Below are positions 1-6,000 of a stretch of 64,000 bases of DNA, in pieces. The stretch is taken from the NCBI RefSeq assembly GCF_018977255.1, contig NW_024704751.1, forward strand, positions 14,198,001 through 14,262,000. Reading direction: 5' to 3'. Position 1 is the stretch's first letter, and the number at the start of each line of letters is the position of its first letter. The stretch comes from Callorhinchus milii (lineage: Eukaryota). A program made the position numbers.

Positions 1-3000
1 ATTTTGTGGGCTAAGGCGGGAGCCAATTGCACATAGACAGTCGTGGATTGAGTGACCCTATTATTATTTTTATTTAATTAAGTAAATATTTCCCAGACAT
101 GCTGTCAATGTTTTTCTCTGCCTGTAATAATAATAATAATAATAATAATAATAGAAAGGGGATAATTAAATGAAAGGAGTTGATCAGTTTGTGGTGGGAC
201 AGAATTGGATGGGTAAAGGCTATATAATATAATATAATATATATAACGTGTATTTTTTTAAAAATTATGGTGATTGACAATTCAAAGAACACCACTTGTG
301 GATGGATGTTGCAACACACCAGCAAATCCCGTGATCCTGCCCTCCAAACCAAAAGTAGGTGTGTGTTAACAGTGACGAGTTGGGTCTAAGTCTGGAAAGA
401 AGGAAAGCGTTTGACACTAGTCCCAACAGACTAAAAAAAAACGTTTCTCTTTACAATTAACACATCAGATCTCGATTTGTGATCAGGTTTTTTTTTCTTT
501 TTGTCTCTCTCTCTCTTTCCTTTCTTTCCTTGGCAATTCTCAGTAACTTGCAGCAAACTCGTTTAAGCTTAAAAAGTTGTGTGCTTCCCTTTCTCTTTCT
601 CGCTCTCGCTCTCGCTCTCTTGTCACAGGTAAGAAGATCTCACTCAGTTAAACCATGTCAGTGAGTCAGGTTTCGACTGTGGACAGAGTGGAGGCTTCAC
701 CAAAGAGCAACAAACCAGACAACACAGCTTTCACCCAGCAAAGGCTCCCGGCTTGGCAGCCCATTCTGTCGGCAGGTTATGTCCTCCCTCTGTTCATCGT
801 GTTTGGGTTGATATTTATTGGGATCGGACTCGGGTTACACTTCACTTCCAACAGCATCATGGAAAAACAGGTGAGTGAGTGACTAGTTATCTACCTGCCT
901 GCATATCTACCTTCCTACCTACCTACCTGCTCCTTCCCCTATCACTTACTTCCTGGTTCTTTGTAGCTAGATTATTTGTCTTTTCCCCCTCCCCCCACCT
1001 TCTCTTTGGAGCTAGGAGCTAATATTTAGGGTTTTTAACTAAATTTAGGGTTTTTAACTAAAGTTCTGGGTATTGCATCCACTTTTAGTCAGTTTCACGC
1101 GTTCCCGCAGTGACAAATTGGTCTTAAAGTTGCAGGATTTTTTTGTTTGTTTGTTTGTTTGTTTCCCCATTAAAAATGTCAGTGGCAAAGAGAACAAATC
1201 CTCACCTCCAAGGTTATCGGTCGTTATGGAGTCTGTATTGACCCGAAAGTAAAAGCAAACTATCCCAATGTTCCCAGATGCAGAGATGCAGAGTTGGGGT
1301 GTAATTTAATCCTCAGGCTGAAACCTTTTACATCCATTCCTACCATTTATTTGCTTAATCTTCAGTGGAGGCCAACCTTTTTGGTCAGGCGAGAAAATAA
1401 ATGTTCTTGATTTATGGCCACGGCATAAACATTGCCACTCAGTCCTGTAGCTCAGTGGTTAGAGCACTCGCCTTGCATGCGAGACACCTGGGCTCAATTC
1501 CAGGCAGGTCAGGGCGAAACCTTGGGCAAGTTTCCTTACTCCACACGCCTAATAATAATAATCCCTCCAAAAAACAAAACAATAATAAATTGGTCATTTC
1601 AATCCACGACTGTTTGTGGGACTGCTGTGCACAATTGGCTGCTGTGTTTTGCCCACAAATACACAGTCAATTCACTTTACAGCATATTCTGTGAAGCTCT
1701 TTGAGACGTCGAGACGACGTGAAAAGCGCTATATCAAATGCAAGGATTATTACTGTTATCACTGTAAAATAAATTGACTGTATATTTGTGGGCGAAATAA
1801 GATATCGCGCCTTATTGTGTCATTGAGATGTCTCAAAGCGCTTAACGGAATATAGTGTAAAGCAAATTAGTTGACTGTGTATTTTATGGGCGAAACGCGG
1901 CAGCTATTTGTGCACAGCAGTTTCCCACAAACAGTCATTGATTGAGTGACCCATTTTTTGGAGGGATTATTAGCTCCTGGAAGCGATCCGCAATCGACTA
2001 ACAACCAGGTTCTTACTTACTGCTGGGCAAACAGAGGTGCGTGGAGTAAGGAAACTTGTCTAAGGTTTTGCACTGTCGGGCAATTGAACCCAGGTCCTCT
2101 CGCTTGCGAGGCGAGCGTGCTAACCACTATGCTATGGAACTCCTCAAGTGTTAAGCATTAAGCGTCTGGTGCAAATGATATGATGACCCAGGAATTGTAA
2201 GGTGTAACCAAAAGTTTGCACTTTTCTGTTTTCTCCTAGATCGATTATACAGGTGACACAAGCGAGCATGCTTGCTACAATTGCAGTATGAATGCAAATA
2301 AGAACTGCAAATGCACAATAAGATTCACGGTGACCCAGATGATGAAGGTAATTAACTGAAGTCCATTCATATCTGAATAAGTAACTGCTCTTTGACTTCC
2401 AGATTTTAAAAAAATAATAAACTTTGCAGTTGATGTCGCACATTTAATGTGGGAAGGACATGTCAAAGCGCTTCACCGGACATAGCTGTAGGCGAACACG
2501 GCAGCTGATTTACACACATCTTACAAACAGACACAAAATGAATGACCAACTTTATCGGGGGGTTGTTGGGTGGGGCACTGGGAGAAACTCCCTTTTTTCG
2601 AGTAGTGCCATGGTATCCTCAACGCCCACCTGTACAGAATAACATCTCAACAACCACAACCTGTATCTACATAGTGCAGGGGCAGTGTCAGATGATGAGC
2701 AGTGAGAGTGGAGGTGAGAGGTGAGAGTATTGGTGAAAGAGGTGACCTCATCTGAAGGACCTCACTTCCGACAATGTAGTACAGAGGAACTGTCTGGTGG
2801 AGTGGCCAATAGACCTGACCATATGTCTGAGTACTTAACTGCGCAGCAGGACTAATGCTTTGTTAGTCAGAATGTAATGAGAATGGAAACCCTCTGCTTA
2901 AAGTTCTAACTTGTCGTCATCATCAAACCAGGCACCATCAATGTTCACTCACAGAGAATACTGTGTTTCTCTCTAGGGGCCCATCTTCATGTACTACGGA

Positions 3001-6000
3001 TTATCGAATTTCTTTCAAAATAATCGGAAGTACGTAATCTCCCGGGACGATATCCAACTTTTCGGTGATTTAGATAATTTCCAGGTAATGTCTTTCAAGG
3101 AACGGTAAAGCTCCAAACAGTTCAAACCGTGGAAATAAATGACTTCCTTCATCTCTGCTTCTCTGTTTTCTCAGAACCCTTCCAATTACTGTTTTCCATT
3201 TGTCCGAGACAGTCAGAAACGCCCAATTGTTCCATGTGGAGCCATTGCAAACAGCCTTTTCAATGGTGAGTTAATGAGTATTGTGTATCAACGGAGAGTT
3301 CATGTTTGTTCACTTTACAGTATACTCTGTGAAGCATCACTCGACTTGAAAATAATTACTGCAAAGCATTTTGAGGCGTTTCAATATAGTAAGGCACAAT
3401 ACAGTAAAACAGTAAGTATAAATCGTTGCATCACATATCTTTACCCTGAATGTTTTCTTCCAGACTCCTTCACCCTATATAAAGTCGGGAATGACAACAA
3501 TCGCTCTCAAGTTGTCCTGAAGAGCAAAGGAATTTCTTGGTGGACGGATTACAACGTCAAATTCAAGAACCCGGTTACAACCAACAATAACAGCGTTCTG
3601 CAGGCAGCATTTGATGGTAAGTTTCATTTGCTTATATGTTAAGTGGATCAAGATCCTCAACGTGACCTACAAAGCCCACTCTTCACCCATACAAATACTC
3701 CCACCCACCGACCCACCTCATAATGGCAACTCCAGCAGTCACCCCCCAAAGCATACTCTGGGATCCCCATGTTTTGGCTCTTGCCAACCTGCACCTAATA
3801 CTCTCGGGAAATAGGTAAGCAGGGTGTGTCCCTCCAGAGGGAGAGTGAGCATTCCATTCTAGACACTTGCAAAATTTCCATATGTATGTGGCATGCACGC
3901 AATAATCTATCTGGATAATAACAACAACAAGAAATTGCATTCATATCGCGCCAATCACGTCGGGAGGACATCCCAAGGCATTGGACAATGTGGGTTGGGA
4001 TCAGAGAGGGGTGGAGTGCAAGTGGGAGGGGGTGGAGGAGGGAAGATGACAGATTGCACGGTCAAAAAGGAAGGTCTTGAGACACACCAATGGGTTTCTC
4101 CATGTGTTGGACACCCAGCCGAGCAAAACCCAAAATGTTTGTTTGAGTGTGGTGCTCATCTCGGCTTATTTCGCCCACAGGGTATACAGTCAATTCACTT
4201 TACAATATATTCTGTGAAGCACTTTGAGACATCTCAAAGACGTGATAAGGTGCTGTATCAAATGCAAGGATATGATTATTATTATTTCTGCGGTCAGCTC
4301 GTTCCAAGGCCAATTCGATCAATTATCTCGATTCAATTCTAGGAACCGTCAAACCTTTGAACTGGCTTCGACCTGCCTACGAACTAGACACGAATCCCCA
4401 AAACAACGGCTTCCAAAACGAAGACTTCATTGTGTGGATGCGGATCGCGGCTTTGCCCACGTTTCGCAAACTCTACCGGCGAATCGATGAGGGACTGACC
4501 GTTGGGAAATACGACCTGGAGATAGCGTACAGTATCCTTGGAGACAGTGTAAACATAGAGGGGGTTGAGAGAGGGAGAGGGAGGGAGAGCTAAGATAACA
4601 GACCGAATCATATTGAAATGTTTCCTCCATCTCAATTATGATCGAACCGAGCTCATTTGCTAAAGTAGCTCAGGTTACTCTGCGTCCCATGACTGTGTTT
4701 GTTTGGAAGTCTCAAATGGAGTGGTTTCCAAACAGCATTCCTCCATAAGGAAATGTAGGGGGGGGGGGGGTGTGCGTGCGGAGGGAAGGGGAGAAGATAG
4801 ATTATGTCCTATAATCAGGGAGAGGTCCCTCATGCTGTCCCAGTGTGTCACGGGAACCCTGCACCGGAAACAGCTCACGAGATACAGAGAGAGAGAGAGA
4901 CGGCGGGACACAATACTACAATACTATGCATTTCCAGTTACTATATTGAGTTCAGCTAGGAACGTTGCATTTTACACCATGTTATTAAAGAGCAGGGTTT
5001 TGCCACTACACAGTGGGCCGTCCCCGGCCACTTTCAAAGAGTCACAGTGGGACCGCAGCCCAATTGGATTCACACCCCGCTGTGTAGGCGTCTGCAGGGA
5101 AACTGAGTCTCCTCCAGGTGTGGGGCAGGAGCAGGGATCCATTGTGACCCTTCTTAGCTCAACCCTGACAGCACTGTGGGATTCTCACGGTGACGTTTCA
5201 CCACGAGGTGAGCGAGTGCCTTGTACCGTACGGAAGGCTTGAAATGTCAGATGGATCCATCAGGTCTGTAAAGACATCCTAACAGCAAAAAACTTTGGCC
5301 TTGACCCATTGTATCCAGATTATCCGGTGCTGAGCTTCGACGGACGGAAGCACATAACGTTCAGCACGATATCCTGGATGGGCGGCAAGAACTCATTCTT
5401 GGGCATTGCTTACCTGGTGTGTGGGTCCCTCTGTGTTGTGACTGGCATTGTGCTGCTTATCGTCTATATCAAATACCAAAAACAGCACCACGGCTCTGCT
5501 GAATAGCGAGCTGCACAACGGCACCCAAATCGTTCTGCGATTAGTTCTACCTGTTGGACAGAAATAGCGAATTATCATGGAATGGTTATTAGAAATTAAC
5601 TCCTTATATGAAGCGTTTAAATTTTACTTCATCTTTTTGGGAATGAGAAGAGTGTCAGGTCTCTTTAATTTACCCGTCGCATATTTCCCAGTTGTGAACT
5701 CTGTATTGATTTAATTACATTATGAAAAAGGTGCTTCGAAACACATCCCAAATGACTGTGTCTTCTTGCAAATGTTAGTTAGTTACTTGAAAATGTTTAC
5801 AGCGATTGTTTTGCTCAGCAAATGTAGTCGGGTGCATTAACAAATTAGGGCTTGTGAAGGACCCTCTGGGTACACAGAGGCTGGAGCCAGAAGAGGTAAT
5901 AATGTTCCAGGAGTAAGACTGAGCACAATCACTAGTACTCGGTGGTGGAGGCGGGAGAATAATTCAGATCACTATCATTGATCTTATTGATCAATTATTA

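What the first reader, a model, noticed from the sequence alone, without database searches (positions are those of the whole stretch)
655..5506. Intron-containing TMEM30B-like gene: candidate parental locus of the intronless mammalian TMEM30B
Seen: seven coding exons with a TMEM30A-like layout but TMEM30B-type residues ([42 protein letters not shown]). Known (recalled): mammalian TMEM30B has a single coding exon and is not next to ZMPSTE24; TMEM30A is on the chromosome arm carrying the RLF paralogue ZNF292. Inference: this is the whole-genome-duplication copy on the RLF paralogon from which TMEM30B was retrocopied, with the parent later lost in the mammalian lineage.
Basis: partly seen in the sequence, partly recalled or inferred. 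Interest (0 to 1): 0.7.

Follow-up and report, generated by a model that had tools for sequence, protein, structure and literature searches.

The report
Multi-exon shark TMEM30B, ancestral-type locus
This is the ordinary, already annotated seven-exon TMEM30B (flippase beta-subunit) gene of the elephant shark, sitting beside ZMPSTE24 and RLF, and its layout and position suggest that the single-exon mammalian TMEM30B is an old processed copy that replaced a gene of this kind.

Summary
Window 655-5506 (+) has seven coding exons, 6 of 6 introns GT-AG, 1053 nt. All 7 exon peptides lie contiguously in NCBI's 'cell cycle control protein 50B [Callorhinchus milii]', XP_007892977.1, so the gene is already annotated.

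An ML tree (76 proteins) puts it in the TMEM30B clade (100/99), apart from 50A and 50C. An AU test rejects joining it to 50A (p 0.0175).

The exon borders are the ancestral TMEM30 ones: exon-skipped isoforms of whale shark and frog 50B and a short sturgeon model, and of 50A in six species, lose whole exons at these borders.

Neighbours are TMCO2-like, ZMPSTE24 and an RLF-type gene, which are human 1p34.2 genes. Papers give mammalian TMEM30B a sole exon, at 14q23.1 beside PRKCH.

Retroposition with loss of the parent is therefore the best reading, but it is inferred, not shown. No vertebrate genome could be searched. The date is open: amniote 50B shares one long stem, yet a tree with it outside all other 50B is not rejected (p 0.459). 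Multi-exon 50B is not special to this species. Interest is modest.

The parts
655..870 (+). TMEM30B coding exon 1 (aa 1-72: cytosolic N-terminus and first membrane helix)
   Evidence: ATG at 655, donor GT at 871. 100% identity over 100% of its length to P0001. Found at aa 1-72 of P0001. Hydrophobic segment at aa 35-66.
2240..2347 (+). coding exon 2 (aa 73-108, 108 nt, variable Cys-rich start of the ectodomain)
   Evidence: AG/GT borders; aa 73-108 of P0001. Exactly this block is missing from frog 50B isoform X2 and from a sturgeon 50B model.
2977..3084 (+). coding exon 3 (aa 109-144)
   Evidence: AG/GT borders. Pfam CDC50, 43.3 bits, profile positions 54-85. Located in P0001.
3175..3265 (+). 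coding exon 4 (aa 145-174 plus the first base of codon 175)
   Evidence: AG/GT borders. Pfam CDC50, 29.3 bits, profile positions 94-121. Located in P0001.
3464..3616 (+). coding exon 5 (codons 175-226 in part; 153 nt)
   Evidence: AG/GT borders. Pfam CDC50, 21.4 bits, below the cut-off. Located in P0001. Whale shark 50B isoform X2 lacks exactly aa 175-225.
4343..4531 (+). coding exon 6 (codons 226-289 in part)
   Evidence: AG/GT borders. Pfam CDC50, 58.3 bits, profile positions 167-230. Located in P0001.
5319..5506 (+). coding exon 7 (to aa 350, second membrane helix, stop TAG at 5504-5506)
   Evidence: AG acceptor. Pfam CDC50, 68.2 bits, profile positions 232-285. Located in P0001. Hydrophobic segment at aa 314-342.
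9961..10293 (+). neighbour: TMCO2-like open frame
   Evidence: Pfam PF15844 (TMCCDC2), E 5.9e-6, 26.9 bits against a cut-off of 27.
12859..17193 (-). neighbour: ZMPSTE24 (CAAX prenyl protease); six exon-bearing frames seen
   Evidence: Peptidase_M48_N hits at 17026-17193, 16120-16275 and 15486-15779. Peptidase_M48 hits at 14002-14340, 13774-13998 and 12859-13110. They are colinear on the - strand.
21560..21922 (-). neighbour: second TMCO2-like open frame
   Evidence: Pfam PF15844, E 1.4e-10, 42 bits.
33437..40281 (-). neighbour: RLF/ZNF292-type zinc-finger gene (1817-aa last-exon frame at 33437-38887 and an upstream exon at 40108-40281)
   Evidence: Pfam TPR_Rlf (E 3e-53 and 4e-18), zf-C2H2_ZN292 and C2H2 fingers. 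It is called RLF only because ZMPSTE24 and TMCO2 lie beside it.

Best explanation
Window 655-5506 is the seven-coding-exon tmem30b (CDC50B) gene of the elephant shark Callorhinchus milii. It encodes a 350-aa, two-helix, glycosylated beta-subunit that pairs with P4-ATPase lipid flippases.

Shown here:
- It is an orthologue (TMEM30B clade) of the mammalian gene.
- It keeps the exon layout shared with TMEM30A.
- It lies among orthologues of human 1p34.2 genes (TMCO2, ZMPSTE24, an RLF-type gene).

Taken from papers:
- Mammalian TMEM30B has one exon and lies beside PRKCH at 14q23.1.
- The old KDM1A/TMEM30 linkage is kept in elephant shark and gar, not in human.

Inferred:
- The multi-exon gene at the 1p34.2-like place is the ancestral state.
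- The amniote or mammalian gene is a processed mRNA copy that landed beside PRKCH and took over, after which the multi-exon parent was lost (retrogene replacement).
- The shark locus is thus a living example of the parental type, not the parent itself.
- The event most likely fell on the amniote stem.
For: Gene model:
- 6 of 6 introns are GT-AG and the reading frame is 1053 nt.
- 7 of 7 exon peptides are contiguous in XP_007892977.1 / V9KWN0.

Family:
- CDC50 Pfam hits on 5 of 7 exons, colinear.
- Two hydrophobic segments, with 6 Cys and 4 sequons between them.
- The protein aligns over aa 15-344 to solved CDC50A and over aa 18-346 to solved CDC50B chains.

Orthology, from the ML tree of 76 rows and 364 columns:
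- 50B clade, 36 rows, 100/99.
- Chondrichthyan 50B, 7 rows, 100/99.
- 50A, 15 rows, 100/99.
- 50C, 17 rows, 100/100.
- Inside B the order follows the species tree: lungfish with tetrapods 87/81, amphibians with amniotes 96/77.
- AU tests reject chondrichthyan B joined to A (dlnL 40.7, p 0.0175) and amniote B joined to A (dlnL 49.5, p 0.0073).
- 9 of 10 A/B-diagnostic positions carry the B state.

Ancestral introns:
- Whale shark 50B X2 lacks aa 175-225, which is exon 5.
- Frog 50B X2 and a sturgeon model lack aa 73-108, which is exon 2.
- 5 of 6 examined 50A X2 isoforms lack 36 aa within 2-3 residues of exon 2, and 1 of 6 lacks 36 aa at exon 3.

Place:
- TMCO2-like, ZMPSTE24 and an RLF-type gene lie in the window.
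- The same three names are in the human 1p34.2 gene list, and that paper has no TMEM30 or CDC50 entry.

Mammal state:
- 'Sole exon of Tmem30b'.
- 'Single-exon gene'.
- 14q23.1.
- Adjacent to PRKCH.

Old linkage: KDM1A/TMEM30B is linked in C. milii and gar but not conserved in human.
Against: - No DNA of any other vertebrate could be read. The intron state and neighbours of gar, coelacanth, amphibian, sauropsid and marsupial 50B are unverified here. Poly(A) or target-site traces of a retrocopy were not looked for.
- The AU test does not reject a tree with amniote 50B outside all other 50B (dlnL 2.6, p 0.459). The nesting that makes the shark gene an orthologue of the parent is therefore favoured but not proven.
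- Raw similarity does not favour B. Per-exon identity to A and to B is about equal. Human CDC50A chains score 423 bits against 405 for CDC50B. Some teleost 50A-like proteins reach 58-60% identity, like the 50B of bony fishes.
- One lemming 50B model lacks exactly the exon-2 block. If real, it would hint at an intron in a mammal. A second model of the same gene has differently placed gaps, so an artefact is likelier.
Confidence: 0.72

Rival explanations
1. Amniote TMEM30B is an old separate duplicate: either a second whole-genome-duplication copy or a retrocopy made before sharks and bony vertebrates split. Reciprocal loss followed, with amniotes keeping only that copy and all other jawed vertebrates keeping only the multi-exon one. 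The shark gene would then be a paralogue, not an orthologue of the parent at the time of copying.
For: - The AU test does not reject all 24 non-amniote 50B rows forming one clade with amniote 50B outside (dlnL 2.6, p 0.459).
- Amniote 50B sits on a long stem (0.27).
Against: - The best tree nests amniote 50B next to amphibian 50B (96/77), with lungfish next (87/81).
- No species in the lists (120 rows each) shows two 50B-type proteins.
- Only 1 of the 120 best hits to P0001 is from Callorhinchus, namely P0001 itself.
- The scenario needs long coexistence followed by clean reciprocal loss.
Confidence: 0.13
2. There was no retroposition. The multi-exon gene was moved to the PRKCH region by a DNA rearrangement in the tetrapod or amniote lineage, and then lost its six coding introns one after another.
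For: Nothing positive in these calls. It is not excluded, because no amniote locus other than what papers say of mouse and human was seen.
Against: - Loss of all six coding introns (7 exons here, against a sole exon in mouse), together with a move away from every old neighbour, is the usual mark of a processed copy.
- The 50A and 50C relatives keep introns across vertebrates, as their exon-skipped isoforms show.
Confidence: 0.1
3. The window gene is really a TMEM30A- or TMEM30C-type gene that has been misnamed 50B.
For: - An older NCBI title for the same protein reads '50A-like'.
- PDB CDC50A scores slightly above CDC50B.
- Per-exon identities to A and to B are about equal.
Against: - The B clade has 100/99 support, and C is a separate 100/100 clade.
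- The AU test rejects chondrichthyan B joined to A (p 0.0175).
- 9 of 10 diagnostic sites carry the B state.
- The AU test against 50C was not run. That exclusion rests on branch support only.
Confidence: 0.02

Closest known systems
Mammalian TMEM30B / CDC50B (beta-subunit for ATP8B1, ATP8B2 and ATP8B4; solved with ATP8B1 as PDB 7vgh chain A)
   Same: - Same clade in the ML tree.
- The protein aligns over aa 18-346 with the solved CDC50B chain.
- Same two-helix plus ectodomain build.
- The partner role is taken from passages of the review PMC4937031 and from PMC13142999.
   Different: - Seven coding exons here against a sole exon in mouse.
- Neighbours here are TMCO2, ZMPSTE24 and an RLF-type gene, against PRKCH at 14q23.1.
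- The mammal protein is the more diverged one: long amniote stem and a GC-rich insert in the exon-2 region.
TMEM30A / CDC50A
   Same: - Same exon borders, as far as exon-skipped isoforms show.
- Highest PDB score, 423 bits.
- Reported on 6q14.1. This is the arm said to carry the RLF paralogue ZNF292; that last point is recalled and was not checked.
   Different: - A separate clade with 100/99 support.
- The AU test rejects union with the shark gene.
- The A state appears at only 1 of 10 diagnostic sites.
Retrogene replacement or 'orphan retrogenes'. Examples: the Iroquois-Sowah block dismantled in tetrapods (Maeso et al. 2012, seen only as a reference entry); HAP40, single-exon in amniotes and multi-exon elsewhere (PMC7725122, abstract start in the listing); human orphan retrogenes (PMC3548309, abstract start in the listing)
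   Same: A multi-exon gene in early-branching lineages, a single-exon orthologue at a new place in amniotes or mammals, no parent left, and an old microsynteny (KDM1A/TMEM30) broken.
   Different: For TMEM30B the retrocopy step has not been demonstrated here. No paper found by the searches says it: TMEM30B has 0 occurrences in the main text of PMC3548309. Supplementary lists could not be opened.

Membership tests
CDC50/LEM3 family (Pfam PF03381) | Significant match to the family profile | tested here: met
   Exon by exon, 4 of 7 peptides are above the 28.6-bit cut-off (43.3, 29.3, 58.3 and 68.2 bits). Exon 5 scores 21.4 bits and exons 1-2 give nothing. All hits are colinear. The identical database protein carries PF03381.
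CDC50/LEM3 family (Pfam PF03381) | Two membrane helices flanking a large Cys-bearing, N-glycosylated ectodomain | tested here: met
   Kyte-Doolittle segments at aa 35-66 and 314-342. Between them lie 6 Cys and 4 N-x-S/T sequons. This rests on hydropathy only; no topology predictor was run.
CDC50/LEM3 family (Pfam PF03381) | Forms a complex with a P4-ATPase | not testable with these tools
   No shark P4-ATPase was fetched and no complex job was run. The role is inferred from orthology and from passages of PMC4937031.
TMEM30B orthologue group | Groups with mammalian TMEM30B to the exclusion of 50A and 50C | tested here: met
   B clade 100/99. AU tests against A give p 0.0175 and 0.0073. 9 of 10 diagnostic sites carry the B state. 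The position of amniote B inside the clade is not secure (p 0.459).
TMEM30B orthologue group | Same neighbours as mammalian TMEM30B (PRKCH) | tested here: not met
   Pfam scans of 430 stop-free frames of the window gave TMCO2-like (2), ZMPSTE24, Tctex-1 and an RLF-type gene, and no kinase. From 41.4 kb on, and in 77-661, only frames of 60 aa or more were scanned. This misfit is what the relocation reading predicts.
TMEM30B orthologue group | Single coding exon, as in mouse and human | tested here: not met
   Seven coding exons.
Retrogene replacement (mammalian gene as the retrocopy, this locus as the parental type) | The copy lacks all introns that the parental type has | tested here: met
   Six coding introns here. 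'Sole exon' and 'single-exon gene' in mammals come from paper passages only.
Retrogene replacement (mammalian gene as the retrocopy, this locus as the parental type) | The copy lies at a place not syntenic with the parental type | tested here: met
   The window's neighbours are 1p34.2 genes in human. TMEM30B is at 14q23.1 beside PRKCH. The human side comes from papers, not from sequence.
Retrogene replacement (mammalian gene as the retrocopy, this locus as the parental type) | Parent absent from genomes that carry the copy, and copy absent from genomes that carry the parent | not testable with these tools
   No vertebrate genome collection was open. Weak hints only: no TMEM30 or CDC50 name in the paper that lists human 1p34.2 genes; 1 of 120 best hits is from Callorhinchus; no second copy in the 64-kb window.
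Retrogene replacement (mammalian gene as the retrocopy, this locus as the parental type) | Poly(A) remnant or target-site duplication at the copy | not testable with these tools
   No mammalian DNA was examined. After more than 300 My such marks are not expected to last (general knowledge).

The most novel reading that the evidence does not exclude
Amniote TMEM30B is an orphan retrogene. On the amniote stem a processed copy of the multi-exon gene, then lying beside TMCO2, ZMPSTE24 and RLF and linked to KDM1A, landed next to PRKCH and replaced its parent. This broke a pre-vertebrate KDM1A-TMEM30 microsynteny and set off faster evolution of the protein. The flippase subunit now tied to hearing in mice would thus owe its regulation to a new genomic home.
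Probability: 0.5. Interest if true: 0.45.

Novelty: new member of a known kind. Interest (0 to 1): 0.32.

Why it matters
The gene itself is ordinary and already annotated. What it offers is a clean reference for the ancestral structure and position of TMEM30B.

If the replacement reading holds, TMEM30B joins the short list of essential vertebrate genes whose present form in mammals is a retrocopy with no parent left. That bears on three points:
- How its expression is controlled. It would have a new promoter and new neighbours, and it is now a proposed deafness gene and a compact gene-therapy cargo.
- Why mammalian CDC50B is more diverged than CDC50A.
- How an ancient regulatory block (KDM1A/TMEM30) was dismantled.

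It is a tidy case rather than a surprise. A genome-browser comparison would settle it.

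Tried and rejected
- Whole reading frames with stops were sent to Pfam for a quick neighbour scan.
- Raw identity as a classifier was dropped. Per-exon identity to A and to B is nearly equal, and the PDB ranking favours CDC50A.
- The 50%-identity representatives carry no names. 10 were looked up: one was vole 50C, five were named invertebrate proteins or clusters (Trichinella, tick, two free-living or plant nematodes, an acanthocephalan), and four were unnamed. They served only as outgroups.
- The first FastTree (131 rows) had only one fast-evolving 50C. 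It was replaced by the ML tree with 17 50C rows.
- The lemming 50B models were considered as evidence for a mammalian intron and set aside as probable model artefacts. They stay listed as unexplained.
- Loose multi-term paper searches ranked general retrocopy papers first. They are no test of whether TMEM30B or CDC50B is discussed.
- The strict paper searches gave:
  - TMEM30B + retrogene: 1 paper, not about this.
  - TMEM30B + intronless: 0 papers.
  - CDC50B + intron: 8 papers, 7 listed, none on gene-structure evolution by title or abstract start.
  - TMEM30B + exon: 66 papers, 25 listed.
- An AU test of chondrichthyan B joined to 50C was not run.
- No structure or complex prediction was run. 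Neither would bear on the question.

Full report
**What is there.** Reading window 1-6500 and checking the borders by script gives seven coding exons on the + strand: 655-870, 2240-2347, 2977-3084, 3175-3265, 3464-3616, 4343-4531 and 5319-5506. All 6 of 6 introns begin with GT and end with AG behind a pyrimidine tract. The phases fit, and the total is 1053 nt (350 codons and TAG). The window holds no N.

Pfam scanned on the seven peptides separately finds the CDC50/LEM3 family (PF03381) on 5 of 7. The matches run in order along the profile (54-85, 94-121, 132-168, 167-230, 232-285). Four of the seven are above the curated cut-off, exon 5 is below it, and exons 1 and 2 give no hit.

**Whose gene it is.** Exon 1 alone was searched against longer proteins (518 proteins at E up to 0.001 among 554 candidates, best 120 listed). 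It is 100% identical over its whole length to a 350-aa protein, P0001, named by NCBI 'cell cycle control protein 50B [Callorhinchus milii]'.
- A script that looked for each exon peptide in turn finds 7 of 7 in P0001, contiguous (aa 1-72, 73-108, 109-144, 145-174, 176-225, 227-288, 290-350). The three split codons read D, G and N, as in the protein.
- P0001 is XP_007892977.1 / UniProt V9KWN0. An older title called it '50A-like'.

From here on I used this stored database protein as the full-length stand-in.

**Is it B, A or C?** Similarity alone does not say.
- P0001 is 64-71% identical to the named 50B of sharks and rays, and 56-62% to the 50B of bony fishes and amphibians. It is also 58-60% identical to some teleost and bichir 50A-like proteins (3474 hits among 5033 candidates, best 120 listed).
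- Per-exon identities to A and B are about equal.
- Solved human CDC50A chains score 423 bits against 405 for CDC50B.

I therefore built trees. A first FastTree of 131 rows placed the shark protein in a 48-row 50B clade, but it had only one, fast-evolving, 50C. A look-up of ten unnamed representatives identified that row as vole 50C. A search with a vole 50C (570 hits among 3597 candidates, best 120 listed) returned 50C from placentals, marsupials, monotremes, birds, a crocodile, a turtle, tuatara, squamates, caecilians and a frog. None of the 120 was from a fish.

The final ML tree (IQ-TREE, LG+C20+F+G4 by PMSF, 76 rows, 364 columns, eight invertebrate or unnamed outgroups) gives three clades:

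| Clade | Rows | Support |
|---|---|---|
| 50C | 17 | 100/100 |
| 50A | 15 | 100/99 |
| 50B | 36 | 100/99 |
| A and B as sisters | 51 | 99/93 |

- The elephant shark groups with six sharks and rays (100/99) inside B.
- AU tests reject holding chondrichthyan B with A (dlnL 40.7, p 0.0175) and amniote B with A (dlnL 49.5, p 0.0073).
- There are 10 positions where 50A and non-chondrichthyan 50B are each at least 80% fixed for different residues. The shark has the B state at 9 and the A state at 1. These sites lie in exons 1, 3, 5, 6 and 7.
QNNR is not B-specific.
- No elephant shark 50A or 50C was in my sample, and I did not run an AU test against 50C.

**Is the layout ancestral?** I could not read other vertebrate genomes. 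Annotated isoforms that skip whole exons do betray intron positions.
- Whale shark 50B isoform X2 lacks aa 175-225 of the shark numbering, exactly exon 5.
- Frog (Nanorana) 50B X2 and a 305-aa sturgeon model lack aa 73-108, exactly exon 2.
- Of six 50A X2 isoforms (two birds, a marsupial, three teleosts), five lack 36 residues within 2-3 positions of exon 2, and one lacks 36 residues at exon 3.

Exons 2 and 3 are 108 nt each in the shark. The seven-exon layout is therefore shared by 50A and by 50B of sharks, ray-finned fishes and a frog. It is the old state, and it is not peculiar to this species.

**Surroundings.** Pfam scans of 430 stop-free frames covered three parts of the window: frames of 50 aa or more from 5.6 to 41.5 kb, frames of 62 aa or more from 41.6 to 64 kb, and four frames left of the gene. 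They show:
- A TMCO2-like frame at 9961-10293 (+).
- ZMPSTE24 on the - strand, as six colinear exon frames from 17193 down to 12859.
- A second TMCO2-like frame at 21560-21922 (-).
- A Tctex-1 exon at 30454-30615 (+).
- An RLF/ZNF292-type zinc-finger gene on the - strand: an 1817-aa frame at 33437-38887 with TPR_Rlf at E 3e-53, and an upstream exon at 40108-40281.
- Nothing between 41.6 and 64 kb.

Pfam cannot tell RLF from ZNF292. I call the gene RLF because ZMPSTE24 and TMCO2 lie beside it. tblastn of four homologues finds no second TMEM30 copy in the window.

**What papers add.**
- A gene table for a human 1p34.2 amplicon (chr1:39.5-41.0 Mb) lists RLF, TMCO2, ZMPSTE24 and COL9A2 (PMC3617176, table passage). 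That paper has no TMEM30 or CDC50 entry.
- TMEM30A, B and C are stated to map to 6q14.1, 14q23.1 and 3q12 (PMC10035192, passage).
- A mouse knockout removed 'the sole exon of Tmem30b' (PMC13142999, passage).
- A preprint calls TMEM30B 'a single-exon gene' of about 3.5 kb (PMC12919021, passage).
- A survey of ancient regulatory blocks reports that the pre-vertebrate pair KDM1A/TMEM30B is not conserved in human but is linked in C. milii and spotted gar. Chicken was also examined and is not named for this pair (PMC7530604, section 4 read in full). Its Table S1, which I could not open, may hold the distances.

**Explanation.**
- Shown: a multi-exon TMEM30B-clade gene, with ancestral exon borders, in a 1p34.2-like neighbourhood.
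- From papers: a one-exon mammalian gene in another neighbourhood.
- Inferred: the mammalian (probably amniote) gene is a processed copy that replaced its multi-exon parent. This is the pattern known as retrogene replacement or orphan retrogene. The shark locus is an orthologue of the parental type.

Function is carried over by orthology. The protein has two hydrophobic helices (aa 35-66 and 314-342) around an ectodomain with 6 Cys and 4 glycosylation sequons. In mammals it is the beta-subunit that ATP8B1, ATP8B2 and ATP8B4 can use (PMC4937031, passages).

**Limits, and results against.**
- The date is open. In the best tree amniote 50B (12 rows, 100/100, stem 0.27) is sister to amphibian 50B (96/77), with lungfish next (87/81).
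- However, the AU test does not reject a tree with amniote 50B outside all 24 other 50B rows (dlnL 2.6, p 0.459). An older duplicate with reciprocal loss therefore stays possible.
- I have no intron or neighbour data for squamates, birds, turtles, marsupials, coelacanth or lungfish. No bird, turtle or crocodile 50B appeared in the two 120-row lists, which proves nothing.
- One submitter-annotated lemming 50B model lacks exactly the exon-2 block. A second model of the same gene has gaps elsewhere. I take both for artefacts, but the exact match is unexplained.
- The location of ZNF292 is recalled, not checked.

**Novelty.** The gene is annotated, and its linkage to KDM1A is in print. The library is open-access PMC plus bioRxiv.
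- Strict searches found no paper that calls TMEM30B or CDC50B a retrogene or discusses its intron loss.
- TMEM30B has 0 occurrences in the main text of the human orphan-retrogene paper.
- Supplementary lists and subscription papers were out of reach. Among the latter is Katoh and Katoh 2004, seen only as a reference entry.
No vertebrate genome collection was on hand.

**Verdict.** It is a tidy, probable case of retrogene replacement seen from the parental side, of modest interest.

Noticed in passing
window 1442-1511 (+), 1664-1682 (+), 1762-1780 (-), 4187-4205 (+), 6025-6043 (+), 20820-20890 (-), and 17 further core copies: A dispersed SINE-like repeat. A 19-base core occurs 22 times in the window at up to 3 mismatches, against 0.03 expected. 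Three copies lie in TMEM30B introns and one just downstream. ARAGORN calls two tRNA-Ala(tgc)-like heads, each about 150 nt 5' of a core copy on the same strand.
   Followed up: partly
window 9961-10293 (+) and 21560-21922 (-): Two TMCO2-like frames (PF15844) in opposite orientation on either side of ZMPSTE24. The first is just under the Pfam cut-off (26.9 against 27 bits). This may be a local inverted duplication.
   Followed up: no
window 19110-19807 and 6314-6417: G-rich tandem arrays with periods of 61, 68 and 138 bases, and of 16 bases. The first accounts for the GC skew of +0.50 in 18-20 kb and for long spurious open frames on the - strand (19101-20267, no Pfam hit).
   Followed up: partly
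window 30454-30615 (+): One exon-sized frame matches the Tctex-1 dynein light chain family (E 8e-11). It lies between the second TMCO2-like frame and the RLF-type gene. The rest of that gene was not traced.
   Followed up: no
proteins P0112 and P0518 (Lemmus lemmus 50B models), not in the window: A 312-aa lemming model lacks exactly the block matching shark exon 2. A 326-aa model of the same gene has differently placed gaps. This is odd for a gene reported to have a single exon in mouse.
   Followed up: partly
one search hit list (P0417, P0474), not in the window: Some rodent 50C models are fused to CMSS1 (named 'protein CMSS1 isoform X1', or carrying PF14617). This fits TMEM30C lying within or beside CMSS1. 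50C was found in tetrapods only among the 120 rows listed.
   Followed up: no
window 601-654: A CT-rich tract and a CAG|GTAAG donor-like site lie about 25 nt upstream of the start codon. The 5' UTR structure of the gene was not worked out.
   Followed up: no
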